Origin: Leptogorgia sarmentosa
Lineage: Eukaryota
Direction: 5' to 3'
NCBI GenBank assembly: GCA_964658305.1
Contig: OZ210885.1
Coordinates: forward strand, 992,001-1,056,000
Length of the DNA stretch: 64,000 nt
Positions 39,470 through 63,239 of this stretch are shown in pieces. Under the pieces are notes generated by a model. The model did not search any database, had not been told where the DNA came from, and saw only the letters and a list, made by a program, of their open reading frames with translations. How positions within the stretch are numbered: the first letter of the stretch is position 1; each line of letters starts with the position of its first letter. The position numbers were made by a program, and so were the translations under genes.

Positions 39470-42076
39470 CAGTGCTTCCATTTTGAAGGAAATTTCCTTT
39501 TGAAAGGATTTTTTGGCAAAATGAAGGAAATAAAAAGGAAATAATTTTTGAAGGAAATTTGAAGGAAATTCTAGAAAAATAAAGGAAAGTTGAAGGAAAA
39601 TACAAAAATATCTTAAAATTAGTTAAATTTTGGAAATAAAGTCACAGAATATATATCATACAGAGATGTAACTGTGATAAAGTGTAGAATATGTATCAAT
39701 CCGATTCGCGGAAGCAGAGTAACCAGTAACCACTAACCAGACAGGCAGCCGCATAAGTCATAACCGCATTCTTTCTACAGTATAATATTAATACTCTTAG
39801 CTTCAGGTTGCTTTCATATTCGAATTTCATATATATGCTAAAAGAGATTTGACATTCTAATCTCCGAACTTAAAGCTCTTGTACAGTCAAAAATGTTTTA
39901 AAACTTTCCGTTCCTTCATATTATTTTCTATTAACCATTTTCCAAAATTAACTGATAGACAGTCACAGTTTTGATTGCAAAATAGGTTTTTCTAAATCAT
40001 TCAAATTTCAAAGCAAAATAGACAATTCGTAAATTAAAAAAGGAACGTTCAAAAGACAAACGCGAAGAACTTAGAGCCATTATCCATTCTGCCTACGAAA
40101 TGTGGCATTTCTGAAATTTTTCTTACGATGACATGTCATATGTAGCTACAAAACCTTGATCGATGTATTAGTTCCTAATTTCTTCATATTTGTCACTAAA
40201 CATTGGTTAAAATTGGCTGTAAGTAGTGTATAATTGCTGCCGAGCGTAGCGAGGCAGCACACTATTCTTGACACGCGGTGGTTTCCCCAGAGTCTACTCG
40301 ACCCAGTCTTTCGCGCGAGTTATGTATTGCCGAGATCGAGATCTTGTGTCTGTCTGTCTGTCTGTCCCATTGAACTATATATAACTGGAAGGCTACCTTC
40401 ATATAAACGGGAACGAAAAAAATGAAGCCAAAATTTTGCGTGGAATTACCCCCAGACACGCGTGTCTGGGGGTAATTTCACGCGAGTTCAGCTGCGTGAC
40501 ATTCTCGCGCGGTAGAAAGGAGCGAACAAGTCAACAACATGTTTTCAAAAGAGAACGTAGGAATTTGCGATGCGATAGAGAAGTGATTTTGCTGTTTTTT
40601 TACTGTTTCAAAGCCATTTCTTGTGCTATGAATACAGAAAAATTAAATTTTATGGCGATCAAATGAATTTCTGTAAGGGAAACTCGCCGAAAACAAACGA
40701 TTGTGTCTCGATTAAAACGGATCTGAAATGCTTGACATTGATTCGAAAGCTGGCTACAAATGGAATCACAACAGATTTTAGTCTATGACTATGTCATGGT
40801 CGCCTGTGGGCGAACAATTTTTGAAAAATGTCAAGAATAAACGAAAAATGACAGCCCGGCATAGCAAAAGTGGCAAAACCTCAAAAGGCCACTTATCGCC
40901 GTTCGGGTTTTTATTATGAAAACCAAACATTCACCAAATTTATGTTAATATAAATGATTCACATCCTCCGAAAACTATTTTTTGCGAATTTTGTACAAGT
41001 TTTTTCAACAAAAAACAGAAATGTTTTTGTTTTGGCCGTGTCTACATTACGTGGAAAGACTGGGGCCGATTTGGCTTCAAGTTTTCGGCCGGAAGTAGCC
41101 TTCCAGTTTTATTTAGTTCAATGGTCTGTCCATAAAGATGTTTGTCGTATCCGGGGGCATAATTAAGCTTCAGGGACGTTTGTTAAAAGAGGGGAGCGGT
41201 CAGAATAATTAAGCTTCAAGGACGTAAACAAGATATTGTATTGCGCACGCGGCACGCATCTCCATGTGCGTCAAGAATCGAAAGGTTTTTACAAAAGCGT
41301 TTCATACGGATGCAAGATTGTGCTAATGTTTTATGCGTTGTGGTTGGCCCAGGTTGGGTAATTTGGTATTTATGGCGATCACACATCAATGATGCAAGCA
41401 ATGTTCAGAATGCTAGCCCTAATAGACTGTTAGGGTTAGTGTTTACTATGCTATTACTAATAGTATAGTAAACACTAACCCTAACAGTAAACCTTCACCC
41501 TAACTGGCGTGCTGTTGCTTTTCAAAGAACGGGACATAAACACAATATGCGCACTGAATCGCATTTTTAATTATTATGTTGAGCTTGCGATTAAATAACG
41601 AGATATAAACGTGGTAAACTTAATCGGTAATAATTTTCACTTCGTATGATCGTACACGAAGAACGAAGGCTGTCACACGCTGCTTTCTGAATACTCGGGT
41701 ATATCACATTTCACTTCGTGTCATCGTATTACGAAAAAATGTATCTTGCCCAGGCTTTTTAAAAACTCGGATACATTACATTACGTGATCATTTTGACTT
41801 CGTATCATCGTATCATGATAACAAGTCACTGTTTCAAAAGTGGACAGGTATTCTATAACCCAGCCGGGATTTTAAAGTTTGAGCGCAACGGCAGCACATT
41901 TCCTTGCGATAGTAACTCCTAGTTTATAGTAAATTACACACTTTCTTCGATGAGAGTTTGTTGAGCACTGATTTCGAGAGGGAAATTTGGAGGAATTTTT
42001 GATATTTTTTGAAGGAAATTCCAGTCAAAAAAAGGAAAAAATAAGGAAATTACCAAGTTCGGAAATGGAAGCACTG
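39470..42076. mobile_element. Non-autonomous hAT-superfamily DNA transposon (2607 bp including the nested insert)
   Basis: Perfect 14-bp TIRs CAGTGCTTCCATTT / AAATGGAAGCACTG. 8-bp TSD TTCAGGAC (39462-39469, 42077-42084). The empty site GACATTCAGGACACTC is seen in the sister repeat units. Clustered subterminal GAAGGAAA motifs. No transposase ORF. Confidence 0.93.
40232..41923 (+). mobile_element. Helentron-associated/DINE-1-like non-autonomous rolling-circle element nested in the hAT
   Basis: 5' hairpin TGCTGCC-GAGCGTAGCGA-GGCAGCA (40235-40259), (GTCT)n at 40347-40366, 3' subterminal inverted repeat CGGCAGCA (41889-41896), end CTAGT. Internal palindromes at 40439-40482 and 41429-41484. Confidence 0.72.
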
Positions 42077-43440
42077 TTCAGGACACTCAGAGAGCAGGGA
42101 GATGCAGATCGGCCCCTAGACCATATGTGATAAGCACCTTGTCCTTGAGCGAAAGGCAATGTCGTAGCATTAGAACCAATATACTATATTACGCCTTCGT
42201 ATTTGTATACGTTACACTCTTCAGGCGTGGTTGTTGTGGGACTCGTCTTGTGAAAATTCATTGCGCATGCGCTTACGTCAAAATTTGTTTTCTTCGTTTT
42301 TTCTTCGTTTTTTCAACATCCCAGACATGGTGAAAGTGTTAAAAGCAAGAATAGTCAAGGAAGAAACGAAAAAAAATTTTTTTTAGTGACAAAACCCGAA
42401 AATAATTTCGTCAAGCACATTGCGCATGCGCGTACATCAAAATTTGTTTTCTTCGTTTTTTCAACATTCCAGACATTATGAAAGGGTTAAGAAGCAAGAG
42501 AATAGTCCAGGAAGAAACGAAAAAAATTTTTTGGGTGAAAAAAACCCGAAAAGAATTCGTCAAGGGCCCTACCATCCGCACAGAGTCTGGTAGATCGCCA
42601 GTAGGGACTTACTAAGGCAACCGGAACGCATCGGGGATGCCCGCTATCACTTGACCGGTACAAATGTATGACTTTGACATTCAGGACACTCAGAGAACAG
42701 GGAGATGCAGATCGGCCCCTAGACCATATGTGATAAGCACCTTGTCCTTTAGCGAAGGGCAATGCCGTAGCATTAGAACCAATATACTATATTACGCCTT
42801 CGTATTTGTATACGTTACACTCTTCAGGCGTGGTTGTTGTGGGACTCGTCTTGTGAAAATTCATTGCGCATGCGCTTACCTCAAAATTTGTTTTCTTCGT
42901 TTTTTCTTCGTTTTTTCCATATCGCAGAGATGGTGAAAGTGTTAAAAGCAAGAATAGTCAAGGAAGAAACGAAAAAAAAATTTTTTTAGTGACAAAACCC
43001 GAAAATAATTTCGTTAAGCACATTGCGCATGCGCGTACATCAAAATTTGTTTTCTTCGTTTTTTCAACATTCCAGACATTATGAAAGGGTTAAGAACAAG
43101 GAATAGTCCAGCAAGAAACGAAAAAAAATTTTTTGGGTGAAAAAAACCCGAAAAGAATTCGTCAAGGGCCCTACCATCCGCACAGAGTCTGGTAGATCGC
43201 CAGTAGGGACTTACTAAGGCAACCGGAACGCATCGGGGATGCCCGCTATCTCTTGACGGGTACAAATGTGTGACTTTGACATTCAGGACACTCAGAGAGC
43301 AGGGAGATGCAGATCGGCCCCTAGACCATATGTGATAAGCACCTTGTCCTTTAGCGAAATGCAATGTCGTAGCATTAGAACCAATATACTATGTTCCAGA
43401 TTCGTATCTATATTGCTAACACTCTTGAGGCATTTAAATT

Positions 43441-43668
43441 TAATAATGATGAACAAGTACAGAGAAAAGAAAGTTCATTAACGAAGACCAATGGCGGTGC
43501 CAAATGCATCTGTCCAACGATCACTAGAGGTGTATGTTCCACAACCTCCGAAATGCATCTCGGTAAGAAACAGGAAGTTGTTAGGAAGCTGACGATGACC
43601 ATACGAGGGTACGCCGGTTTTTCGCCAGTTTACTGCTACACCACGTCTCTCATAAACCAGGCTCCAAT
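43441..43668 (-). pseudogene. Third, 5'-truncated copy of the last exon of the fibrinogen-like paralogs
   Basis: Near-identical to 44773-44980 and to the reverse complement of ~59925-60150. It lacks the 5' part of the exon and the splice acceptor, and abuts the end of the 602-bp array. Confidence 0.85.
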
Positions 43669-44807
43669 TTCATATTTTACAACGGTAAACCCTTCAGTGA
43701 ATTACAACTGATTTTCAAGGGGCCGCATCAAATTCAACCCCATATCCTTCAAACTAGTCCGTTTCAGAAATCAATATTCACCAATGCAAACATAGACCAC
43801 TTTTATAATGCAAAATATAGTTTGAATTTTCTTTGATATTTTCGACTTAACTGTTCTGCATGATTATATGAAGAAAGTATTTCTGTTTTTTGTGCAAATT
43901 CGTATTCCTTAGCCCTTAGGACAGTCTTTACTTTGAAGTAATGTATGCATGAAACTTCACATTATATGTATTTAAGTCGTCCGATATATGGAAGTTGTCT
44001 ACACCCACGATATCGTCAAGTTCTTTGTTTGTCACGTGCTTTTCTTTTATCTTTTATTCATATAATATAACATTAGAAAACCTGTCTGCGTCAATGTTGG
44101 ATTATAATATAATAATATAATTATAGATTAATCAAGAGCATACGAGAAATCCTTATGTAGATAAAATGTATGTGTAATTGCTAAATTAATTATTGCTAGA
44201 AATGAAATTTCTAATAAAAAATTGGATTTGCGGTAAGAATCATTAACATTGTAAATGTTTTTGTACAAAACATTTTACCTGAAATGTGCTGTTTATAGAT
44301 TTGTATACTTTACAACTTACCCTGTATTCATCTCAATAAGTTTACTCTTCATGAGTTCTGATTCTTTTGACCCTACCCAACATACTGACAAAATAACCGT
44401 TGTTGGCTAGCCTTTTGTGACAAGACGTCACATTTTCTCGACGTATATTGCATTTTGTCAGTGTTGATATCAGTCCGACAATCCGGTCATGAGATTAAAA
44501 ATCTGAATGATCCATTTCTTTAAAAATTCACGATTTATAAAAATTATTTGTATGGCACGGTAAAAATGATCAGGCGGGCTTCACGCCATTGCCAGCATGT
44601 CGCTGCATTTTTTAAAGAAACAAAATTCATTGGTAACTGTGCTTTTTATTTCTAAACCAAAATTTGAACAGAATTCAGTGTAACAGATTTATTTTTCTCT
44701 GACGGCTCAATTTAACTAAATAAACCAATTATTAAGCAATAATCTAAGTGCAGCAAACAGTAATTTCCCATTATAATGATGAACAAGTACAGAGAAAAGA
44801 AAGTTCA

Positions 44808-46680
44808 TTAACGAAGACCAATGGCGGTGCCAAATGCATCTGTCCAACGATCACTAGAGGTGTATGTTCCACAACCTCCGAAATGCATCTCGGTAAGAAA
44901 CAGGAAGTTGTTAGGAAGCTGACGATGACCATACGAGGGTACGCCAGTTTTTCGCCAGTTTACTGCTACACCACGTCTCTCAAAAACAAGATTTCCACTG
45001 AAGTAGGAACTGATCGTTCCCTCCTGATGATTGGGGAACAGAGCGAAGTAGGAGTTTGGATTAGCATCACAGTTTCTGAAGGTCACATATTTTCCATTTG
45101 ATCTATAAAGGCAAATTTTATACAACCAATCTGCAGTTAATGTTTGCCTAGTTTTATATTTTACCAGTAATTAATTCTATAGACTTTTACAGGGAAAATC
45201 CTGGGAACCAAGGGTTTCCAACAGTCCAAGTATGGAAATTTATCAACCCCTTTTTCGTATGTGTGGATGAGGCAAAAATTGAAAATTTCAGCCTTGTTTT
45301 CATTCCCATATTTTCCGATCATCTCGCACCTCTGGATCATAGATAACACAATTGCCCTCTTTTTCTTTGCTTTTATGAGAAACTTGATTATATTGAATTG
45401 GGGTAAGAAAATATCAGGAGGCTACAACCCCCAGCCCCCTCCACCCACTTCGTGGCTGCGTTCATGAAAACTGCAGCTATAATGCAAATTGCAATTATCA
45501 ACGACCATAAAAGCGTCTTAAAACGTAGAGTGCGATAATACGAATACCGTTGCACTCTTCGAAAATGGAACTTGCTTTTCAATATCACGTGACCAAAATG
45601 GACCAATCAAACGACCTGAATGTAACGAGGTATTATAATTTTGATATGCGATACAGAATTATTTATATAAATAATTCTGTAACGCATATCAAAAAGTCCT
45701 CACAAATTAACATCTCTCAAGTGTAGAACTGCGTTGTAAGTTGCACAAAAAAGAGCATCGTGCGACAGGAGAAGAAATAGATAACGAGTGGCGTGCCATC
45801 ATGCTGTTATAATGCAGGGGGGGGGGGGAGATGTTGGGAGAATACGAGAGAATCGCGCCATTGAGAATGGGGAAGTATGGGGGAGAAATACCTGAATCCT
45901 TGAGTATTTCGGGCTTTCGCCTTGCTTGCAGGTATTATGCCAAGAAAGATGTAATCACCCAGTCCAGCATTCTTAGGACCTGTATATCCTGCATAATTAT
46001 GCATTAATACACCAAGTGGTTGTCTGGAGTAGTATGGAAGTTGAGTGATGAGAGTAAATGGTTGAAGGCCATTCTGCTTTTGAAAACGAAGAAGAACTTG
46101 GGATTTTTGAGTGAAAATTTGATTAATCAGGTTGGGAAGCTTTCCTCGTTTAACAGCCTCGCGTGGAATGAAGGTAAATCCACCACCTGCCTTCGCCATC
46201 TCACAGTACACTGTGATCACAGTATTGCCCACCAAAATGTCATAGAGACCACTCAATGCATGGGGAGCACTCTTTTTGATGTCAAGACATGACTTCTTGT
46301 ACGTTGTTGAATCAATTATTTTCTGAAACAAGTTGAAATCAAGAAAAAATTAGCTGCAACAACCAGTAATGTAGCCAACCTCGTACCCAGGAATGTAGCT
46401 ACACGATGAGATTAAAATAAAGTATGGCTAATCAGCTGGTAACAAATGATCACTGCAACCAATGTGAAATCATAATGCATGTGTGTGCGTTGTTTACTTT
46501 CGAACAAAACTCTTAGGAATTCAGGAAGGCTGATATGGACTCAATTTATTGTTATGCCATAAAACATAAGAATGACGTCAAATCATTCACCACATAGTAA
46601 ATATATATCAGTTGTTTAATTCCTACCATAAACACTCCGGGCACATTGAGTAGAAGACAAAACAAGGCCAGACGCGTCAT
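44808..46680 (-). CDS. Secreted protein with a fibrinogen-C/FReD-like N-terminal motif and an uncharacterised C-terminal domain, paralog A, 259 aa
   Basis: complement(join(44808-45102,45892-46322,46627-46680)), 780 nt, GT-AG. Signal peptide MTRLALFCLLLNVPGVFM. SCLDIKK...SGLYDI...TVYCEM...GGGFT is the typical fibrinogen-C N-terminal motif. C-terminal NCDANPNSYFALFPN...EMHFGGCG. Confidence 0.85.
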
Positions 46681-47207
46681 TCTGCAATAAAAAATACCGA
46701 TGGATATATAGAAGTATAATAATAGTGGGAAAAGTATAAATTGAATCAGAAAGTAAAAATTGTCCAGCATTTAAAAAACATTTCATTTGTAGTTTTGTAC
46801 GAAAAGTGATATAATGATATTTTGTGACACTGGAATTCAATCGCGCAAACGTAACTACGTAGCAATAAAACCAAGAATAAAGAGTTCCCATATTTCCAAA
46901 AACTTACTGTGTCTGCTGAATACTTTGAGCAAGACTGACAACTATTATATCATCGAAAAACCAATGTTAAATTTAAACATTCTTCTATAGTATAGCTAGA
47001 CGATTTCTATACCTGAATAAAGTTTAGATATTCTCCAACAAATCTCCAAATTTTGAGCTTGATTTGTATAAAAAAACCATTCTGCTGTGCAGCAATTTAT
47101 AGAAATATTTAACATCCTCCTCAGCAAAGTTCTTTGTTGTACTTCTGGTTTGATTGACATTGACTGACACTGCAGATTTTTCATTAATACATTCCTACTG
47201 CATGGGA

Positions 47208-50200
47208 CATCCTCTGTGTGTGGGCTGGATAATTCAATCTAAATTTTGAACTTCCTAGCTCCCTTTCGAAACTTGAAAATGTTTTAAAACTGATTAGAAC
47301 GTTTCTCTAAAGATTCTGTTGGTCTGCGCAAAGTACAATTTGACTGCAAAATACAGTGTATTCGTTATATAGGTAATCATAATGGGCGTGCATTGGGAAT
47401 TCTGAATTAACAATTTCGAGCTCAAAATTTCTGTGTGGCAATAGTTTATGAGCGTAAAGTTCGAGTAAATAATTCATAGAAATAGACGGCGAGTTATCTA
47501 AATCAGATATCAAACATAAATATTCTACCGTCATGATTCTATTAACTTTAACTTCTCAGTGCCCGCAATTATGAACATCTTGTCCAAATGTCTAATCCAT
47601 ACAAAATACGACATTCAATTTGATAAGAGAAGTTGAGTGTAGCAAGTAAAGAACAAGCAAGCATGTTGACATCGTGCGTCACCTGGGCATGGTTAATCTT
47701 TTACTTAACTTCAGCAGTTCAGCTTATTAATAAATAACTTCACAAATGTTTTTTCATAAAAATTGAGGAATTTTTACGTAACCACTTCATTACCGTTGAA
47801 CGATCTTAAAGCACACGCATTGATTTTTGTGTTTCTGGGTAAGAGTATGAGGAAAGAGAATTTTTTGAAGTGAAAATAGATGCAGAGAATAAACAATGGT
47901 TTCTTATGCCAATTTTCATTATCGAAGTATCCGGATTCGAATAACATCCTGCCTACCCAACAGGATGTTATTTCATCTTGTACTCCGAAGTGCACTTATG
48001 GAAAAAAGTCCGGTTTCTCCGCCTATTATTTATTGTATATATTGGGATGAGATCCTCAAACAATAGTTCGGCACAATAAAAACCTCTACAAGTTTGTTAG
48101 ATGCAATGTTAGACGCTCCAGTGGAGTTGAAGGCATAATTTTATACGTTTAGTTGTTGTTGCTGGTCATAATAGTTTGTCTTATCAACTTTGTACTATTA
48201 ATATCTATGACATATCTCAAGGTTGTTTTTGATATCTCAGTTGTGAAGCTTTTGAAGCATGATGATAAGAGGGTCCTGAAGGGGTAAAATAGGAACTGGA
48301 ATTTGCTTATTTGTGGCTGGGAAAATGGGATTTCATGCACTGGGAATGGCTGATTCATCAGCAATAAAACAATAGAAAATGGCAATGGGATTAAGATTTG
48401 AGTAGAGCAGCCACTGAGACGATGGGATTTGTGCTCTTGGACACTGGAATTTAATCCAAATTTGGGCTGGGAAATGGAAATAGGAACCCCCTACAGGAGT
48501 CTCTGATAAAAATATGCTACATCATCTGTTATCTCACTTCCACTCAGGGGCGTAGCGAATGGGAGGTGCGGGGGGTGTCGCAACCCCCTCCCCTTCCCCC
48601 CAATTTTGCCTCTGTCGGCAAGAGAAGAACACCTGTCAAATGTCGGCACATTTTGAGGCCTGGATATGTGGGGAAAATATTTTCTAACTAAAACTGCGTT
48701 GTATTTATTATATTACAAAAACGTTTTGGTCTATGGACATGTTATTGTAAATTGTGATGAAAAAATATACATGTCCAAGTACGTCTACCAAAATAACTTC
48801 CGATATATAATATTATATTTGAATGTTGTAATTGGGTTTGGATTTTTCATGTGAGTGCTTTGCTCTATGCTAACCACAACAAGAAAGCTCTAAAGAGAAG
48901 AAAAGACACAATTTCCAATTTAAAAATACAGCTGTGATCTTCTCCAGGACATTCAACGTGTTTGTGTGCGGGAAGCATGGACTTCAAAATTATAATAATT
49001 GGAAAACATCCTGTCATACGATCGTAAAGTTTACTTTGCATTCATTGATCAATTATCAGTCACTGCATATAGACTTTTTCATTGCTTTTCTTTAGTATAC
49101 ATCTATATGAGAGATAACTGGGTTAAAGCCCATAATTCGGGCTTAAAGAACTTCTTTAAACCCACATAAAAGAACCAAAATTTTGAATCGAACAACCAGG
49201 AAAAAGTGCATCCTCTGTGAAATTGAGAGGAAACTATCGAAGTCTGGAACCGCTATATAGCGCTTTGTAAATAACTGCGTCAATAACTCTAGCTCGTACA
49301 TTTCTCCTTCTCCACCGTTTAAGCTAATCGCGCATAGAAAACAATCAATCTCTAAATAGACACTACAAATATTCTTTTTGTTCTAGGCCCAGTTCAGACA
49401 TCGAACTTTTCATGTGCCGAACCTAATTCAAAAAAATGAACTCATCAAACAAAGAACTTATTAGTTGTGTCTGAATTAAGGACTTATTTAGAATGATCGC
49501 ATATAGATATACTATACAATAAATAATGAGGAGTGAAACAATGAAATAGGCCTCAAGCAGTGACTGATAATTGATAATTTAATTCATCCTCTCTAAACTG
49601 TGTGGGCAGGATAATTCAAACTAAATTTTGAACTTCCTATAGCTGCCCTTTCGAAACTTGAAAATGTTTTAAAACTGAATGCTTCTCTAAAGATTCTGTT
49701 GGTCTGCAAAGTACAATTTGACGGCGGAATACAGTGTATTCATTAGGAGATCACACTCGGAATTCTGAATTAACAATTTCGAGCTCAAAATTTCTGTGTG
49801 GCAATAGTTGATGAGCGTAAAGTTCTACTATAAATAATTCATAGAAATAGACGGCGAGTTATATCTAAATCAGATATCAAACGTAAAATATTCTACGATC
49901 ATGATTCTATTAACTTTAACTTCAGTGCCCGCAATAATTATGAACATCTTCTAATTATCAAGTATATAAATGTCTAATCCATACAAAATAGGACAAGTTA
50001 ATATGTTGACATCGTGCGTCACCTGGGCAAGATTAAACTTTTACTTAACTTCAGCTTATTAATTAAATAACTTCACAAATGTCTTTTCATAACCGTTCTT
50101 CATTCATAATCTACTTCATTACCGTTGAACCACCTTAAAACACGAGCATTGATTTTTGTGTTTCTGGGTAAGAGTATTCAACAGTATACTGTAACGAGGA

Positions 50201-51360
50201 AAGATAATTTTTTTGAAGTGAACATAGATGCAGCGAATAAACAATGGTTTCTTATGTCAATTTTCAGTGTTGAAGTACAGATTCAAATAACATCCTGCCT
50301 ACCCGACAGGATGTTATTTCATCTTGTACTCTGAAGTGCACTTATGGAAAAAAGTCCGGTTTCTCCGCCTATTATTTATTGTGTATTGGGATGAGATTCT
50401 CAAAAAATAGTTCGGCACACTAAAAACCTCTACAAGTTAGAGGCAATTGTACAAACTTTCAGACGTGGATCGGAGTTGAAGGCTTAGTACATTTAGTTGT
50501 TGTTGCTGCACTATTAATATCTATAACATCTCAAGTTGTTTTTGATATCTCAGTTGTGAAGCTTTTCAGTGATCTAGACACTGGTAACCTAATAATGATA
50601 TGATGATAAGAGGGTCATGGGTGGGTAAAATGGAGAAAAAAAAATTCCAATTAAAAAAAACAGCTGTGATCTTCTCCAGGACATTCAACGTGTTTGTGTG
50701 TGGGAAGCATGGACTTCAAAATTAAAATAATTGGAAAACATCCTGTCATACGATCGTAAAGTTTACTTTGTCAGTAAAGTTTACTTTGCATTCATTGATC
50801 AATTATCAGCCACTGCATGCATATAGGCTTTTTCATTCTTCTTTTTTAATATACATCTATATATGAGACTGGGAGATAACTGCATGGGTCAAAGCCCATG
50901 CATAATTCGGGTTTAAACCCAAATAAAACGGAACCAAAATTTCGAAAAATTATATCCGCTCATTCCGCTGGGAAATTGAAAGGAAACTATCGAAGTAGAA
51001 CCGCTATATATAGCTCTTTGTAAATAACTGCCTTTTAATTCAGTCACAAAATTTAGGTTCAATAACTCTAGCTCGTACATTTCATCTTCTCCACCGTTTA
51101 AGCTAATCGCGCATGGAAAACAATCAATCTAGATGTAAATAGTGACTATAAATATTCTTTTTGTTCTAGGCCCAGTTCAGATATCGAACTTTTCATGTGC
51201 CGATTGCCGAACCTAATTCAAATGAGCTCAAACAAAGAACTTATGTTGTGTCTGAATTAATGCCTTATCTAGAATGATCTCACATAGATATATACAATAA
51301 ATAATCAGGAATGAAACAATGAAATAGTCCTCAAGCCGTGACTGATAATTGATAATTGAA
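47208..51360 (+). repeat. Direct tandem duplication: 47208-49584 and 49585-~51360 (the second copy lacks ~48290-48895)
   Basis: Both copies start CATCCTCT..TGTGGGC.GGATAATTCAA.CTAAATTTTGAACTTCCTA and run colinear with many small indels. A further direct copy of ~51190-51460 lies at 56702-56975. Confidence 0.88.
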
Positions 51361-51885
51361 TTGCAAATGGGAATATTGCTGAAGGAAGATTATTACCAGT
51401 TAATTTCCGCAATAAAGTAAACGGATAATTATAGAATTCCCCGTCCCCGCCAACTTGGACATTGTATTTTTACATGAAAAGGCATAGTTTATACGTCGCT
51501 CTTATACCAAATCGTCGTGTCAAATGCAATTCAGACAATAGATAATGAAGTAAGACATCTCATGATGTATTGTTTGAGTTGCATTTGACGCGACGAAAGT
51601 TCGACATAAGAGTGACGTGGACGTCTAAACTGGGCCTCAGACTTTTGTTGAAACTTAAAGTGCAATAATGAAACCTTACCCAAACCCTTACTCTAACCCT
51701 AACATGACTGGGAATGAAGCAATTTTACTTGATGATTTTGAAATTCATTTGACATATTTGGCCTAATTAATATGCAGTAGTCCTTAACGGCGGGGTATCC
51801 TATATGTACCAACTTTAAGTCCACTCGCGCACACAAACACCTTGAATGTCTTGGAGAACATCACGCCTACTTTTCTCAAATTGGC

Positions 51886-54295
51886 AGATATCAATAACAA
51901 CTGAGATATCAATAACAACTGAGATATCAATAATAACTGAGATATCAATAACAACTGAGATATCAATAACAACTGAGATATCAATAACAACTGAGATATC
52001 AATAACAACTGAGATATCAATAACAACTGAGATATCAATAACAACTGAGATATCAATAACAACTGAGATATCAATAACAACTGAGATATCAATAACAACT
52101 GAGATATCAATAACAACTGAGATATCAATAACAACTGAGATATCAATAACAACTGAGATATCAATAACAACTGAGATATCAATAACAACTGAGATATCAA
52201 TAACAACTGAGATATCAATAACAACTGAGATATCAATAACAACTGAGATATCAATAACAACTGAGATATCAATAACAACTGAGATATCAATAACAACTGA
52301 GATATCAATAACAACTGAGATATCAATAACAACTGAGATATCAATAACAACTGAGATATCAATAACAACTGAGATATCAATAACAACTGAGATATCAATA
52401 ACAACTGAGATATCAATAACAACTGAGATATCAATAACAACTGAGATATCAATAACAACTGAGATATCAATAACAACTGAGATATCAATAACAACTGAGA
52501 TATCAATAACAACTGAGATATCAATAACAACTGAGATATCAATAACAACTGAGATATCAATAACAACTGAGATATCAATAACAACTGAGATATCAATAAC
52601 AACTGAGATATCAATAACAACTGAGATATCAATAACAACTGAGATATCAATAACAACTGAGATATCAATAACAACTGAGATATCAATAACAACTGAGATA
52701 TCAATAACAACTGAGATATCAATAACAACTGAGATATCAATAACAACTGAGATATCAATAACAACTGAGATATCAATAACAACTGAGATATCAATAACAA
52801 CTGAGATATCAATAACAACTGAGATATCAATAACAACTGAGATATCAATAACAACTGAGATATCAATAACAACTGAGATATCAATAACAACTGAGATATC
52901 AATAACAACTGAGATATCAATAACAACTGAGATATCAATAACAACTGAGATATCAATAACAACTGAGATATCAATAACAACTGAGATATCAATAACAACT
53001 GAGATATCAATAACAACTGAGATATCAATAACAACTGAGATATCAATAACAACTGAGATATCAATAACAACTGAGATATCAATAACAACTGAGATATCAA
53101 TAACAACTGAGATATCAATAACAACTGAGATATCAATAACAACTGAGATATCAATAACAACTGAGATATCAATAACAACTGAGATATCAATAACAACTGA
53201 GATATCAATAACAACTGAGATATCAATAACAACTGAGATATCAATAACAACTGAGATATCAATAACAACTGAGATATCAATAACAACTGAGATATCAATA
53301 ACAACTGAGATATCAATAACAACTGAGATATCAATAACAACTGAGATATCAATAACAACTGAGATATCAATAACAACTGAGATATCAATAACAACTGAGA
53401 TATCAATAACAACTGAGATATCAATAACAACTGAGATATCAATAACAACTGAGATATCAATAACAACTGAGATATCAATAACAACTGAGATATCAATAAC
53501 AACTGAGATATCAATAACAACTGAGATATCAATAACAACTGAGATATCAATAACAACTGAGATATCAATAACAACTGAGATATCAATAACAACTGAGATA
53601 TCAATAACAACTGAGATATCAATAACAACTGAGATATCAATAACAACTGAGATATCAATAACAACTGAGATATCAATAACAACTGAGATATCAATAACAA
53701 CTGAGATATCAATAACAACTGAGATATCAATAACAACTGAGATATCAATAACAACTGAGATATCAATAACAACTGAGATATCAATAACAACTGAGATATC
53801 AATAACAACTGAGATATCAATAACAACTGAGATATCAATAACAACTGAGATATCAATAACAACTGAGATATCAATAACAACTGAGATATCAATAACAACT
53901 GAGAATCAATAACAACTGAGATATCAATAACAACTGAGATATCAATAACAACTGAGATATCAATAACAACTGAGATATCAATAACAACTGAGATATCAAT
54001 AACAACTGAGATATCAATAACAACTGAGATATCAATAACAACTGAGATATCAATAACAACTGAGATATCAATAACAACTGAGATATCAATAACAACTGAG
54101 ATATCAATAACAACTGAGATATCAATAACAACTGAGATATCAATAACAACTGAGATATCAATAACAACTGAGATATCAATAACAACTGAGATATCAATAA
54201 CAACTGAGATATCAATAACAACTGAGATATCAATAACAACTGAGATATCAATAACAACTGAGATATCAATAACAACTGAGATATCAATAACAACT
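51886..54295. repeat. 18-bp minisatellite (GAGATATCAATAACAACT) x134
   Basis: Units start at 51885+18k. Apart from the first unit lacking its leading G, only two variants are seen: C>T at 51934 and a 1-bp deletion in the unit at 53901. Confidence 0.98.
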
Positions 54296-54327
54296 AGAGA
54301 GATATAGTGCAAAGTTGATAAGACGAA

Positions 54328-56105
54328 TTATTATATGGCTTTTCAAAATTCTCTATTCTGATAATCTGATTGGTTGACAAAAGCAGGAAGGATAATCTCA
54401 CTTCCTTAAAGATAAAACTGATTCGACGTTTCGACCGAAGGGCCTTTGTCCGTGGTCCGTATTTTCCGTATCTGGACCGGTGTCCTGGATGTCGCTTATC
54501 TAATTGCGGGAAATTTCGCTTCGCAAACAGAAAAGATTTTTGCTTTTTAATTTTCCACTTTAAGATAAAAATTTCAAACAACGAAATGTTTCAGATTGAG
54601 CATGTATGTCTACCGTATACTTACCCAGTGAAACTGACGATAGCCGATTTACTTCGCGCGAAAAGCATATGCTCACAGACTCAATTCAGCCATATAATAA
54701 ACAGTTTATTGCGTTGACCTCAGTTTTTGTATCTGCGTGACGTAGTGACGCAGATATATTGCTATCGAGTTGTTAGTTGTTAGTTGTTAGTTGTTAGCTG
54801 TTAGCTGTTAACTGTTAGCTTGCAGCCAATCAGCGAATTCTTTAGTTAAATTTAGCCAATAGACGACAACGTAACATTGAGATGACGTAATTCTCACTGA
54901 GCCCACCCGCAAATTTAAGGGAACCAACGTGGAGGTGTGCAAAGCAGTGCTTGCGGGCCAAATATTACAAAATGGCGGCTGATATAGGCGCGAGCTAAAG
55001 AGTGGTGATGTGTTTGATCGTGGATTTTGTTTCGCATGAATATCCAGATAAAAAGAAATATAATGTTCGCAGCGACGAGTGACTTCACTGAAATAGAGGT
55101 TAATTTATGATCGTTTGCGCCGTTTAGAACACTATTTATACTAAGGAAATTTATACGCAAAAATATCATGACGCAAATTGCAGACATTGGCATTGCTTTA
55201 AAGATATTAATTAAAGAGGTTCGCGTTCGCTATGCAATTTAGATCATCAAAGCAAAAATATCATGACGCAATTTATACAATTGAACACAGCGAATATTTA
55301 TAAGGTTATGAAAGTTAATGTCTTGACACAATTGCGCGTATATTTTCCCTATACGATACTTTAGCGTGTCGGCACTGTCGCACTGACACACTGTACATTG
55401 TTGGACTGCCCGCGGTGTCATTGTGATCACGGAATATCTACTATATTTTGACGCTTCGCCATACGGAATCGTTGAAACATTCAATCCCAGGAAAATAGAT
55501 TTCGTAGCTTGTAATAAAACGGGTTTGTGTGTTTATTAAGCGCGAGACAAAACAAACGAAATCATATATAGATTCAAGTATTCTGTTTTGATACGGTATT
55601 GGAAAGGGTAAATTTGGTTTTTAGAGAGCCACATTTTTCACAAACAATCGCAAAGCGCTGTGTCTAAGACGCAATAACATAAAATGCGAATCGCATTATG
55701 CGATATCATATGTCGTCAAGTTTCAATTCCTTATGCAATTTGATATAAATTATGATGGCGGGAATTCCGGAATGCGAGATAGTCATGAAAGCTTATATCA
55801 AGTATTGAATACGTCTCCGCACAACCTCACGTCTTGAAAGGAATTTAATAGTATTTGCGCTATTCGCCTATTCCCTAGCAGTAAACCATTTTATACATGC
55901 AAGATCGTGTATTAGGGATAAGATGCGTGTATCGAAAAGCTGAAAACAAATAAGACTTGATTATCAAGCTACATAGGCGCAGATACATGTACACTTTGTA
56001 CCTATTTTTTGCATTGACCTCGTTCCTTCGTCGCTCGGTCCATACTAAAAAACCTCAGTCTGATATTTCACAGTACAGACCTCACGCTCAGTCAATAACC
56101 CTTTA
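54328..56105 (-). mobile_element. Second copy of the 914-1416 repeat, interrupted by a Helentron-like insert
   Basis: Reverse-complement match to 914-1416 on both sides of the 54729-56004 insertion. Confidence 0.8.
54729..56004 (+). mobile_element. Helentron-associated/DINE-1-like element inserted into a T-run
   Basis: 5' hairpin ATCTGCGTGAC-GTA-GTGACGCAGAT, (TTAGTTG)n at ~54767-54820, 3' subterminal inverted repeat CGCAGATACA (55978-55987), then hairpin GTACA-CTT-TGTAC and a T-run. The uninterrupted host copy has a plain 6-nt run (A1020-1025 on +) at this point. Confidence 0.78.
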
Positions 56106-58320
56106 TTCTATGACCTGCAACATCGATCTATACTACACACTAAGCTTCAAACACCATTATTGCGTCGTCTAACAAACTTGTAGAGGTTTTTAGTGCGCCG
56201 AAATATTTTTGAGGATCTCACTACACAATGAATAATAAGCGGAAAAACCCGATTTTTTTCTATAAGTGGAAGTCTTCAAAACAAATGATGAATGTCGGGT
56301 GAACAGGATGTTATTTGAATCTGTACTTTATTGCAAATCAAAATTGACAAAATTGAAACTATTGTGTGTTCACAGCAACCACACTGTAAAAATTGGTTGG
56401 TAACATATTTTTTATTGGTTGAAACAACCAATTTGATATAAGTAAAAATTAATTGGTAGAAATAACCAATTGGAATAGTTTATTTCTACCAAATGGACTC
56501 TGTAATTTTGACCCAATAATTGGTAGTTTAAACCAAAAAAACATGTTAAATTAACCAAAACTCGTATTGGTTGTTTTAACCAATTTCATATCAGTCGTTT
56601 CTACCAATTTATGATATGTGAAATCTACCAATTACGGTATTGGTAGTTTCTACCAAAACTGTCATTTTAACCAATTATTTATTGTACCACTGATGGATCT
56701 AATTTCATGTGCCGATTGGCGATTGCCGAACCTAATTCAAATGAGCTCAAACAAAGAACTTATGTTGTGTCTGAATTAAGGCCTTATCTATAGATCTCAC
56801 ATAGATATATACAATAAATAATCAGGAATGAAACAATGAAATAGTCCTCAAGCCGTGACTGATAATTGATAATTGAATTGCAAATGGAAATATTGCTGAA
56901 GGAAGATTATTACCAGTTAATCTCCGCAATAAAGTAAACGGATAATTATAGAATACCCCGTCCCCGCCAACTTGGATAACATAAAACAGTTTGTTTGCGG
57001 GCGTTTGCCATGAGCCTGCTGTTGGCGCATTCGTATTTAAAGAATTAAAGACATTTTTTGATTTTCCCTCTCTATTTCTCAAACTGTTTTTAGCGATTAG
57101 AGTTAGAATGCTACGGTTACGGTTAGGTTTATGGTTTAGGATTGTTTATTTTGTGAAAATGACTGACAAAGCACTTGTGGAATTTTAAGCTAAAGTATAG
57201 GATTAGCCATGCATACGAAGATGTCAACACTTGCTTATTACTTTCTAACTGTATCCAAGCAAGTTTATAGGATCTCTTGATATATGCGTATTAACAAAAC
57301 AGATCAAGTTAGCCAACATCCGCGTAATTTTTTATTGATTAGACAGACTATTTAATAAAAGCTATTGATATTGCGAGGCCTAAAGTTAAAGTTAATAAAA
57401 TGATGGCACTATAATATGCTATTTGAAGTATATGATATACGCGGCATTCTCAAAATATCATGATTTATTAAATGTATATACTTTTGCATTCCGTTATTGT
57501 CAAATGCCATGTAATGTCAACCGTTCGAATTCGGTGCCGATGATGGTGCAATGTCAACCATTTAGAGACGCCTGGATACGAGGCAGGTCACATGCTAATT
57601 GCGACAACCAACAAAATCTTTATAAAGAAAATGTTTAATTTTAATCAATTTTAAACAATTATATTTGCAATTTTCCAAAGGCTAGAAAGTGCAAATTTAA
57701 TCACCTCGTTTCATGCAGACTCCTCCGCAGCCATCACCTACCATTACTATATAAAGGAATCTAATATCTCTCGTACACTCTGCCTCAGCTGAACTTTCTT
57801 AATTCTATTAGAGATGAATGCGGAGGAGGCTGTTGTCCACGCTGAGTGCATGCATGTAACAATTATAGTTTGGGTTCCACTGTGTAACATACGTCATTCT
57901 CAGAGGAATTTAATAAAATCAAAGTCATTCAATGTCAGTGAAATTAGCCTAAATTCGAACAATAAAATTGCTGAAAGAGGAAGTCAAATTTTTCTATATA
58001 ATACTGGGCAGCATAGCGATATTCTTCAGTTGTTCACTTCTTCCCTGGCGAGCTCAAACTTGGATATTCAGTTTGGAGAATAATCAGAACTTTATTAAGG
58101 TATCGGTAGTATCTATCTATTGTAGCAGAATGTTTTATCGTTTCAATACTTGTTCGTATTGTCCAAAGTCCTATAATACGGACCTTTCCTTGAATTAAGC
58201 AAAATAATGTCGCAAATAATTCTTTTCGTGGAAACGTTTTTCAAAATGCTGCCAAATGTATTTCACGATTCATAAGTTTATATATTAAATATCTATATAG
58301 TATTCGTTTTTCATTGCAGA

Positions 58321-60116
58321 ATGAATCGTCTTGTCTTGTTTTGTTTTTTAATCAATGTCTCTGGAGTATTTTTGGTAAGGATTAAGACTCACCACTGCGT
58401 TGATATTTACCATAATTACTGCAAGCTGAGATTAATTGTCGCATGTTCCATGCCAGCACAGTAAATGATCGAGTTTTAATACGATAATTCTTTAGTACTT
58501 TAGTTCAAAAAGGAATAAAATAGAGAATTGCGTTATGAAAGTGTATGTAACTTTTCTCTTTTTAATTTGGTCTATGGTATAGGTTTTCGTCGAGTCTCAA
58601 CTCTGTGGTCTAGAATAATTCCCACGCGTCTGATCTATATATAGCGGCGTTCAAAACTATAATTTATTGCAGTAACAGTAGAGAGTCAACTCAGCTTTTT
58701 TTTTCAGTACAAGAGGTTTTGTCTCGAAATCAAATATTCATCTGTCACTACAGTTAATCTAACTTATAGTTACTTCATTGTAGTAACCATGTCGTGCTTT
58801 TGTGAGCCACGCGCATTAGAGACTTTAAGATTGACGTTCTCGGCAAACCGCTATAACCGCAGCCGCAGACTTCAAGTCGACGTATTTTAAAGTTAGTTCT
58901 ACAAGTTTTCGGCAATAAAGTAGATTACTCACGCGAAAATATTGATGAAGCGCGGTCAAGTAAAGGACTTACAAGAGGAGTCGTTTCCAATCTTATAGCG
59001 CCTAAATGCTGTAACTCATCTTTTCTTGATTACAATTTCACACAGAGAATAGTTACCGCAGAAATATATTCAACAACGTACAAGAGGTCATGTCTTGACA
59101 TCAAAAAGAGTGCTCCCCATGCATTGAGTGGTCTCTACGACATTTTGGTGGACAATACTGTGATCACAGTGTACTGTGAGATGGCGAAGGCAGGTGGTGG
59201 ATTCACCTTCATTCCACGCGAGGCTGTTAAACAAGGAAAGCTTCCCAACCTGATTAATCAAATTTTCACGCAAAAATCCCAAGTTCTTCTTCGTTTTCAA
59301 AACCAGAATGGCCTTCAACCATTTACTCTCATCACTCAACTTCCATACTACTCCAAACAACCACTTGGTGTATTAATGCATAATTATGCAGGATATACAT
59401 GTCCTAAGAATGCTGGACTGGGTGATTACATCTTTCTTGGCATAATACCTGCAATCAAGGCGAAAGCCCAATCTCTTCAAGGTTTCAGGTATTTCTCCCC
59501 CATACTTCCCCATTTCAATGCTCGAGAATTGGCAATTTATTCATTTTACATTACGTATAGGCCCTGTCATATAGGCAATTTTTCTTAATTGCAGCTTACA
59601 TACCAGAACAACCATAATTAAAAAATTACTTTTCTATCGGAACATTCGTAGTTTTTTGTAATGTTACCTCTACCATTTTAGTCTTAGACCATTTCTCAAC
59701 TAAACTTTGTAGCACACTCTTACAACATTCTCGTAAACATATTGTAATTCACCTATACGTGCGAAAATATGTAATAGTAAAACCATAATAACAAAAAATA
59801 ATAATAAATTTGCCTTTATAGATCAAACGGGAAAAGTGTAAACTTTACAAACTGTGATGCTAATCCAAACTCCTACTTCGCTCTGTTCCCCAACCATCAT
59901 GAAGAAAATATCAGTTCTTACCACAGTTGGAGCCTGGTTTATGAGAGACGTGGTGTAGCAGTAAACTGGCGAAACACTGGCGTACCCTCGTATGGTCATC
60001 GTCAGCTTCCTAACAACTTCCTGTTTCTTACCGAGATGCATTTCGGAGGTTGTGGAACATACACCTCTAGTGATCGTTGGACAGATGCATTTGGCACCGC
60101 CATTGGTCTTCGTTAA
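58321..60116 (+). CDS. Secreted protein with a fibrinogen-C/FReD-like N-terminal motif, paralog B, 263 aa
   Basis: join(58321-58374,59046-59488,59822-60116), 792 nt, GT-AG, same intron phases (0, 2) as paralog A. Signal peptide MNRLVLFCFLINVSGVFL. Confidence 0.87.
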
Positions 60117-60859
60117 TGAACTTTCTTTTCTCTGTACTTGTTCATCATTATAATGGAAAATTACTGTTTGCTGCACTTAGATTATTGCTTAATAATTGGT
60201 TTATTTAGTTAAATTGAGCCGTCAGAGAAAAATAAATCTGTTACACTGAATTCTGTTCAAATTTTGGTTTAGAAATAAAAAGCACAGTTACCAATGAATA
60301 AATTGAATTTTGTTTCTTTAAAAAATGCAGCGACATGCTGGCAATGGCGTGAAGCCCGCCTGATCATTTTTACCGTGCCATACAAATAATTTTTATAAAT
60401 CGTGAATTTTTAAAGAAATGGATCATTCAGATTTTTAATCTCATGACCGGATTGTCGGACTGATATCAACACTGACAAAATGCAATATACGTCGAGAAAA
60501 TGTGACGTCTTGTCACAAAAGGCTAGTCAACAACGGTTATTTGTCAGTATGTTGGGTAGGGTCAAAAGAATCAGAACTCATGAAGAGTAAACTTATTGAG
60601 ATGAATACAGGGTAAGTTGCAAAGTATACAAATCTAAACAGCACATTTCAGGTAAAATGTTTTGTACAAAAACATTTACAAAACCAAAACGCTGAAAAAC
60701 TGATTCTTACCGCAAATGCAATTTTTTATTAGAAATTTCATTTCTAGCAATAACTAATTAATTTGAAACACATACATTTTATCAACATATGATTTTTCGT
60801 ATGCTCTTAATTAATCTATAATTATATTATTATCCAATAATGACGCAGACAGTTTTTTT

Positions 60860-61153
60860 AATTAACAATTAGATTACGAGCTCGAGACTTCTATGAGGTG
60901 ATAGTTGATGAGGGCGAAGCCCGAATCAACTATCATCTCGTAGAAATCGAGAGCGAGTAATCTAATTGTTTTAGTAGAATCAGAGATCAAACATGAAAAT
61001 ATTGCAAAAAATAATTTAAAACCGCGTCTCAGAAGACATTTTCTTGAACGAAAATTCACATATTTTGCTACTCGCTATCTATCGAGGAATAGATAGCGAG
61101 TAGAGTAACCAATCAAATTGCAGCATTTGCAATAGTATACGAGTATGATTTTA
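60860..61153. mobile_element. ~290-bp interspersed repeat inserted in the right arm only
   Basis: The left arm (~44065-44092) is contiguous across this point (AACATTAGAAAACCTGTCTGCGTCA). The right arm has an extra block between TGACGCAGACAGTTTTTT and TAATGTTAG. Confidence 0.75.
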
Positions 61154-61893
61154 CTAATGTTAGACATAAGAAAAGCACGTGACAAGCAAAGAACTTGACG
61201 ATATCGTGGGTGTATAGACAACTTGCATATATCGGACGAGTTAAATGCATATAACATGAAATTTCATACATTACCACAAAGTAAAAACGGTCCTAAGGGC
61301 AAAGGAATACAAATTTGCGCAAAAAGCAGAAATACTTTCTTTATCTAATCATGCAGAACAGTTAAGTCGAAAACATGAAAGAAAATTCGAACTATATTTT
61401 GCATTATGAACGTGGTCTATGTTTGCATTGGTGAATATTGATTAATGAAACGGACTAGTTCAAAGGATGGGGTTGAATTTATTTGGCACATGTCGGGAGT
61501 CACTAAAAATGGCGCCAATAGCAAATTCCAAGCTGCAGGTTACAATTTCATTTTTCCGGCAGCTTATAATTAAGATAACGGACATTTTAACTGAAACATT
61601 CTACACTTATTGGGTCAAATATCGTTTAGTTCTGCCAGGATTACGTATATACATTGATCTCAGAACTTATAACCCTCCACACGCGCCATTTTTGTTGGAC
61701 CCGCACTATTTTTAATGATTTGCGACACGCGGGAAATAGCTACACTATCTCTTAGAGGATAACTGTCAGTCATGCACATCACTGTATCATGCATGGCGGG
61801 TTTTGTTTTTGTCTCAAATTAAATCAAATCAATCGATCTGGAGACGGTTTTTCTTAGCCCATTTAGCTTAAACGGTGGTTTAGTCAACATTGA

Positions 61894-62124: not shown

Positions 62125-62246
62125 GTTTCCATTGCAAAATGAATAATTCTCTATTTAAACACGTTTATATTTCATGATTCACATTATGATATAACTAGCT
62201 TACATTTGGTATATATGTACTTAGTATCTAAACATCTAAATATTAA

Positions 62247-62662
62247 TTTAAAATAAATTAATGCTGTGAGTAGTTGAAACTTATGTTGTCAAGACTTCGA
62301 GTCTTTAGTCAGCAGGTTGTCAAGACCTAGAGTCTTTCGGCAGCCAGTGGAAACTACTTTGAAGCAGGGTACTAGAATTATGTAAACATTTAAATATCAA
62401 TTTAAAATAAATTAATGCTGTAAGTAGTTGAAACGTATGTTGTCAAGACTTCGAGTCTTTAGTCAGCAGGTTGTCAAGACCTTGAGTCTTTCGGCAGCCA
62501 GTGGAAACTTTTTTACAGTATAAATAGTACATAGTTAACCATTAAAATATCAATTTAAAATAAATTAATGCTGTGAGTAGTTGAAACTTATGTTGTCAAG
62601 ACTTCGAGTCTTTAGTCAGCAGGTTGTCAAGACCTAGAGTCTTTCGACAATCAGTGGAAACT
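62247..62662. repeat. ~154-bp tandem repeat, ~2.7 copies, each with an internal ~30-bp duplication
   Basis: TTTAAAATAAATTAATGCTGT.AGTAGTTGAAAC at 62247, 62401 and 62554. GTTGTCAAGAC...GAGTCTTT occurs twice per unit. Confidence 0.88.
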
Positions 62663-63239
62663 GTTTCACAGTGTAATACATATAAACACTGTAGATATCA
62701 TACAGTAATTAATTGTTCAACACTTTCTTTGAATAATGAGTGAAATAATTCGAAATTAAAAATACAGTAAATGATAAATTAAACTAAAATTCATACTATG
62801 CATATTTGGAAATTATTGCAGAAATTTGTAGGATTCTGATATATTAATACTATGCAGTATGCCATATTTATATATAGGCAGGATATGTATTTCAAATGAT
62901 ACAATCCTGAAATACTCAGCAGCAAAAATATAATAATATCATGGAATATAATTTATATAAGTAGTGTTCCATGTACATACAGTAGTGTATAAATAGTATG
63001 CTGTAGATAATTCATGTCAACAGTTTAAATAGCTTGAAATAAATGTTTTAAAGGGTCGCTGGGGCAAACCAATGTTGAATGGTTTGCTGCCAGTATTTTG
63101 TTTATTTTTTTTTCGCACAGATTTTAACAAAAGTTAATAGAGACGTGGCAGTACTACACCATATGAAAGGCTGTACCAAAATTCAACACCTAGCTACTGT
63201 AGGGAATAAATAACTCGGTCAAGAAAGAATGCACGTCGC

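What the first reader, a model, noticed from the sequence alone, without database searches (positions are those of the whole stretch)
51886..54330. Birth of a satellite: the 134 x 18-bp array still has its unamplified seed in the paralogous arm
Seen: the reverse-complement monomer exists as a ~1.7-copy proto-repeat at 48212-48244 (ATATCTCAAGGTTGTTTTTGATATCTCAGTTGT) and at 50528-50557. The array's right flank (ATAGTGCAAAGTTGATAAGACGAATTATTAT) is the reverse complement of the seed's flank at ~48168-48198 (ATAATAGTTTGTCTTATCAACTTTGTACTAT), and homology resumes at 56109 after the TE. The array has only two internal variants and covers the symmetry axis (~52500-52600) of the inverted duplication. 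Inference: a very recent burst amplification (slippage, rolling circle or break repair) of a local 18-mer, placing ~134 GATA-containing (AGATAT) units upstream of both paralogs.
Basis: partly seen in the sequence, partly recalled or inferred. Interest (0 to 1): 0.75.

Follow-up and report, generated by a model that had tools for sequence, protein, structure and literature searches.

The report
Minisatellite born in one gene duplicate
A 2.4-kb, almost perfect run of 134 copies of an 18-letter unit sits where two sister copies of the same DNA, likely from a soft coral, carry only a short unrepeated precursor, which makes it a tidy example of a known way that tandem repeats likely arise rather than a new mechanism.

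Summary
The array is real: 134 units, 131 of them exact. Its exact cycle is present as a contig in 4 of 4 public runs laid, from 3 studies. The seed is also real, and the case is stronger than reported. Homology to the two seed-bearing copies (A and B) continues on both sides of the array, so the array grew in place in a third, inverted copy (C). A 5-6 bp direct repeat at period 18 fits the known Haber-Louis/Taylor-Breden route to a minisatellite. About 96 bp next to the inner end are missing from C. Read-derived abundance never exceeds one allele of the assembled size, so it is not an abundant genome-wide satellite.

Not supported: (1) the 'symmetry axis', which is arithmetic only; the fold-back junction lies left of the array. 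(2) A 'very recent birth': C differs from A and B by 16-24%, there is no outgroup, and at least 2.7 perfect units occur under two organism labels. (3) GATA sites: there is no WGATAR, and the start codons are 4-5 kb away. Length variation between samples is suggested but confounded. Verdict: a new member of a known kind.

The parts
51886..54296 (.). 18-bp minisatellite, 134 units (131 exact)
   Evidence: exact 48-nt cycle contig in 4 of 4 runs
54290..54305 (-). degenerate first copy (R1) of the ancestral repeat pair, kept at the outer end of the array; shares AGTTGT at period 18 with the units
51810..51884 (-). inner flank of copy C, homologous to A 48915-48991 and B 50647-50723; 96 bp (vs B) or 677 bp (vs A) between seed and flank are absent from C
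54306..54334 (-). outer flank of copy C, homologous to A 48168-48198
54335..56108 (.). inserted transposon-like element splitting copy C; its two ends match a copy at 932-1415; the left boundary may lie at 54328
56109..56392 (-). outer block of copy C, homologous to A 47862-48167 and B 50210-50438
48212..48244 (+). seed in copy A: R1 (15 bp), 5-bp spacer, R2 (13 bp)
50528..50557 (+). seed in copy B, a tandem duplicate of A (4-6% mismatch)
44808..46680 (-). left paralog, predicted three exons, small secreted fibrinogen/intelectin-like protein; start codon 5.2 kb from the array
58321..60116 (+). right paralog, predicted three exons; start codon 4.0 kb from the array

Best explanation
This is a minisatellite, likely confined to this one locus, that likely arose in place in one of three paralogous upstream segments, when an 18-bp stretch bounded by a short direct repeat was duplicated and then expanded, while the two sister copies kept the unexpanded state. 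Shown: the array, both seeds, homology on both sides, the degenerate first copy at the outer end, the 96-bp loss at the inner end, and the exact cycle in independent runs. Inferred, in order: (1) slippage or unequal exchange between the two AGTTGT copies made the first duplicate of spacer+R2; (2) a T>A change in the spacer came before expansion, since all units carry it; (3) R2 was still intact when duplication began, so the inner deletion came at the same time or later; (4) repeated slippage or break-repair events lengthened and homogenised the array, which probably varies in length between individuals. It is most likely neutral.
For: Homology on both sides with E 3e-7 to 2.5e-8 and alignments. 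Direct repeat at period 18 in both seeds. A-B differ by 4-6% and C by 16-24%, against 2 internal changes in about 2,410 bp of array. Exact 48-nt cycle contig in X1, X4, X6 and X7. X1 depth is 41-97 times its local contigs, against 129 expected for one assembled allele. Seed B lies in contigs of local, low depth, so the segment is not a high-copy element. The two initiation models are described in PMC3389668 (passages).
Against: No outgroup: (A,B) versus C cannot formally tell a gain in C from a loss in the A/B ancestor. The length differences between runs are confounded: other repeats are also 3-15 times richer in X1 than in X4 and 3.0-3.6 times richer than in X7. Such short direct repeats are common (254 of 1,856 30-bp bins), so the seed does not explain why this site expanded.
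Confidence: 0.8

Rival explanations
1. Old array, lost in A/B: a repeat existed before the inverted duplication, contracted in the A/B ancestor, and has been kept homogeneous in C by turnover.
For: A and B are one lineage, so one loss is as parsimonious as one gain. The exact cycle occurs under two organism labels.
Against: A, B and C all keep a degenerate, longer first copy next to the unit, as expected of a seed. A contraction would more likely leave clean period-18 copies; A and B have only 5-6 bp at that period.
Confidence: 0.08
2. One-step saltation: a single break-repair or rolling-circle event made most of the 134 units and the 96-bp deletion together.
For: Near-perfect homogeneity and a deletion exactly at the array's inner end. 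Breaks next to a tandem repeat can change the repeat and its flank together in zebrafish (PMC3873399, abstract only).
Against: Low-depth cycles in X4, X6 and X7 suggest that short multi-unit alleles exist (confounded). The unit folds no better than shuffles (z -1.2 and -1.0). A later deletion fits equally well.
Confidence: 0.2
3. Local copy of a dispersed or genome-wide satellite inserted here.
For: No whole genome was available to search directly.
Against: Insertion at the exact paralogous seed position would be a coincidence. Cycle depth is at most one allele's worth in the 3 runs with a local baseline.
Confidence: 0.03
4. Assembly artefact, or an inflated length.
For: Extreme purity; the 1-bp deletion unit could be an error; X1 depth (41-97x) is below the 129x expected.
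Against: The exact cycle is in 4 of 4 runs from 3 studies, at tens of copies in X1.
Confidence: 0.05
5. Coding exon for a Thr-rich ISITTE repeat: an ATG at 51846 or an AG acceptor at 51886-51887 opens a long frame.
For: 688-aa open frame on the + strand; a pyrimidine-rich stretch precedes the array.
Against: Three of six frames of the unit are open anyway. The frame shifts at 53902. The homologous frame in A stops after 10 codons.
Confidence: 0.03

Closest known systems
[quoted passage not shown]
   Same: Seed is an imperfect repeat pair with a 5-6 bp direct repeat at the unit period; an incomplete copy remains at one end.
   Different: Here the ancestral state is kept in two paralogs 1.3 and 3.6 kb away in the same genome; the other end is cut by a deletion; copy number is high and purity near total.
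Human CACNA1C intron-3 30-bp VNTR (PMC12452837, passages)
   Same: A single ancestral unit (chimpanzee) against a kilobase-scale array; all units differ from the ancestral unit at one fixed base.
   Different: CACNA1C has 158 distinct units, an ortholog as reference and an expression link. This array is nearly pure, the reference is a paralog, and no function is shown.
'Pure' human-specific VNTRs such as the 28-bp PDE4D repeat (PMC8327921, passages)
   Same: Uninterrupted units at one locus.
   Different: Allele-length variation is shown there and only suggested here.

Membership tests
minisatellite | head-to-tail units longer than microsatellite size, array 0.5 to several kb | tested here: met
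   18 bp x 134, 2.4 kb; size range from the PMC2820488 passage
single-locus minisatellite | one locus, not a dispersed family | tested here: inconclusive
VNTR | copy number varies between individuals | tested here: inconclusive
   ratios about 54, 3 and 7 in X1, X4 and X7, but control repeats shift the same way
Haber-Louis origin | unit flanked by a 5-10 bp direct repeat in the ancestral state | tested here: met
   5 bp in A and 6 bp in B at period 18; 6 bp at C's outer end
Taylor-Breden origin | incomplete terminal unit | tested here: inconclusive
   partial, degenerate copy at the outer end; inner end removed by a deletion
abundant genome-wide satellite DNA | many loci or very high copy number | tested here: not met
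   X1 41-97x, against about 100-1,600x summed depth for dispersed repeats nearby
GATA-factor site cluster | WGATAR consensus (recalled) | tested here: not met
   absent on both strands; 15% of 18-bp windows contain GATA

The most novel reading that the evidence does not exclude
A single repair event turned a 2-3 unit repeat into a pure array of more than 100 units while deleting its inner flank, and short and long alleles still segregate. Seed (paralogs), short allele and long allele would then all be observable at one locus: a natural time series of satellite birth.
Probability: 0.15. Interest if true: 0.55.

Novelty: new member of a known kind. Interest (0 to 1): 0.3.

Why it matters
Minisatellite origins are hard to see because the ancestral state is usually gone. 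Here two paralogs keep it a few kb away, so the first steps can be ordered from sequence alone. It is a clean teaching case and a possible population marker. The mechanism is already described, and no effect on the neighbouring genes is shown.

Tried and rejected
No whole genome was held, so no genome-wide k-mer search was possible. No RNA holder was listed; this says nothing about expression. The unique left flank 51790-51885 had no contig in 4 of 4 runs; a hole proves nothing, and assemblers often drop short links between two repeats (recalled). X5 showed no depth over the two units, but neither did X1, which has the cycle, so X5 is undetermined. A 23-nt seed/unit motif had 0 matches in metagenome contigs and 0 in viral contigs. 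A flank motif gave 53 loci, 0 of 53 with an alignment of 40 nt or more, so chance hits and no outgroup. Hairpin-driven slippage: no unusual folding in 4 of 4 sequences. The segment as a decayed coding region: no long frame shared by A, B and C on reading six-frame translations (not searched against databases). Taylor & Breden 2000 is not held. Literature searches for octocoral minisatellites (1 unrelated hit) and for paralog-preserved monomers (0 hits at 5 of 6 terms) found nothing; these are narrow searches of an open-access library. Earlier scan findings: none.

Full report
Observation. Tandem Repeats Finder gives an 18-bp array at 51886-54300 with 134.2 copies and 99% matches. Parsing gives 131 exact units, a C>T unit at 51922, a 17-bp unit at 53902 and a terminal unit at 54279. 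With up to 3 mismatches, the only matches outside the array are 48220-48237 and 50533-50550, both on the minus strand; 0.12 were expected by chance. The quoted seeds and flanks are as written.

Context. Two predicted three-exon genes point away from each other, starting at 46680 (minus) and 58321 (plus). A search with exon 2 found 23 relatives among 49 candidates; the named ones are from Dendronephthya and Xenia, so the window is likely from an octocoral. Four of four relatives have a weak Fibrinogen_C hit below the cut-off, and the atlas points to fibrinogen/intelectin-like clusters. The arms are a mosaic: exon 1 has 22% mismatch, exon 2 3.8%, exon 3 8.1% and the 500 bp after the stop 0.4%. 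This suggests an old inverted duplication with later gene conversion (inference).

Three copies of one upstream segment. Self-BLAST shows A (47217-49584), its tandem duplicate B (49599-51362) and an inverted copy C. C reads: outer block 56392-56109, inserted element, outer flank, array, inner flank 51884-51814. A and B differ at 12 of 210 and 3 of 74 columns; C differs from them at 34-39 of 210 and 18 of 74. Its homology to A (E 2.5e-8) and B (E 1e-6) puts the array at exactly the seed's position in C. The orientation switch lies between 51362/51459 and 51814, so the array is inside arm C. Midpoints of the inverted blocks run from 50400 to 53303, so 'covers the axis' reflects insertion lengths only.

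Seed anatomy. A and B have R1, a 5-bp spacer and a 13-bp R2. Only the last 5-6 bp match at period 18; the first 6-8 bp match at period 19-20. The array unit is spacer+R2 with one T>A change carried by all units, and C keeps a degenerate R1 at the outer end. At the inner end the last unit stops part-way through R2, and 96 bp present in B (677 bp in A) are absent. Because the units hold the intact R2, the deletion cannot precede the first duplication (inference). Direct repeats of 6 bp or more at period 15-25 occur in 254 of 1,856 bins of the unmasked window, so the seed is an ordinary opportunity. The unit folds no better than shuffles.

Independent data. Thirteen runs from 4 studies hold the stretch or part of it. 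I laid 5 of them in two calls. In one search, 4 of 4 runs (X1, X4, X6, X7; 3 studies, 2 organism labels) contain one 48-nt contig matching the array without differences, which needs at least 2.7 perfect units. Depths are 3828, 19, 16.4 and 54. Against the local contigs listed, the ratios are 41-97 (X1), 2-5 (X4) and 6-9 (X7); X6 has no baseline. One assembled allele predicts 129. So the array exists outside this assembly and is no more abundant than one locus would give. The differences between runs suggest length variation, but nearby dispersed repeats are also richer in X1, by 3.3-15.2 times over X4 and 3.0-3.6 times over X7, against 16 and 8 for the array. The tool warns that contig depth is not a copy number, and X1 may be the source sample. 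I treat polymorphism as likely but not shown.

Mechanism. Best reading: duplication between short direct repeats, then expansion and homogenisation by slippage or break repair, in copy C alone. 'Very recent' applies at most to the last expansion. The birth lies somewhere after the C versus A/B split and likely before the sampled populations separated. The direction is not polarised by an outgroup (searches found none), although the shared degenerate R1 favours gain. There is no evidence for a regulatory role: no WGATAR on either strand, GATA in 15% of 18-bp windows, and start codons 4.0 and 5.2 kb away.

Comparison with known cases. PMC3389668 (passages) describes both initiation models: 5-10 bp flanking direct repeats, and mispairing at noncontiguous repeats with an incomplete terminal unit. 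PMC2820488 (passages) gives the same models and the usual array sizes. I did not read the two original papers. PMC12452837 (passages) reports the CACNA1C VNTR as a single 30-bp unit in chimpanzee, with one base at which all human units differ. PMC8327921 (passages) describes pure VNTRs. PMC3873399 (abstract) shows breaks altering a repeat and its flank. Two searches for a matching octocoral or paralog-seed report found none, which is weak evidence of absence. No supplements were read.

Verdict. A real and well-preserved example of a known process. Interest 0.3; new member of a known kind.

Noticed in passing
window 51198-51459 and 56717-56976: 97% identical 262-bp direct repeats bracket the whole block holding the array, the inserted element and copy C; recombination between them would delete it.
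   Followed up: no
window 43443-46721 vs 58283-61480: The inverted paralogs are a mosaic from 22% mismatch (exon 1) to 0.4% (3' region), suggesting patchwise gene conversion.
   Followed up: partly
window 43443-43667: A third, partial copy of exon 3 and its 3' end, 99% identical to the right gene.
   Followed up: no
window 44808-46680 and 58321-60116: Small secreted protein family with only a sub-threshold fibrinogen-domain hit; the two named Xenia relatives have close locus numbers.
   Followed up: partly
window 38621-43433: About 600-bp units in tandem and dispersed copies, 90-96% identical, with internal 160-bp subrepeats.
   Followed up: no
window 62225-62676: 154-bp tandem repeat, 2.9 copies, about 90% identical, with an internal 31-bp doublet.
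   Followed up: no
window 51160-51240: Very high-copy short palindromic element (summed depth hundreds to over a thousand times local), also at 27861-27918, 49394-49458 and 56729-56760.
   Followed up: no
window 12972-13397, 20168-20497, 30667-30963: Exons with CUB, sulfatase and flavin monooxygenase Pfam hits.
   Followed up: no
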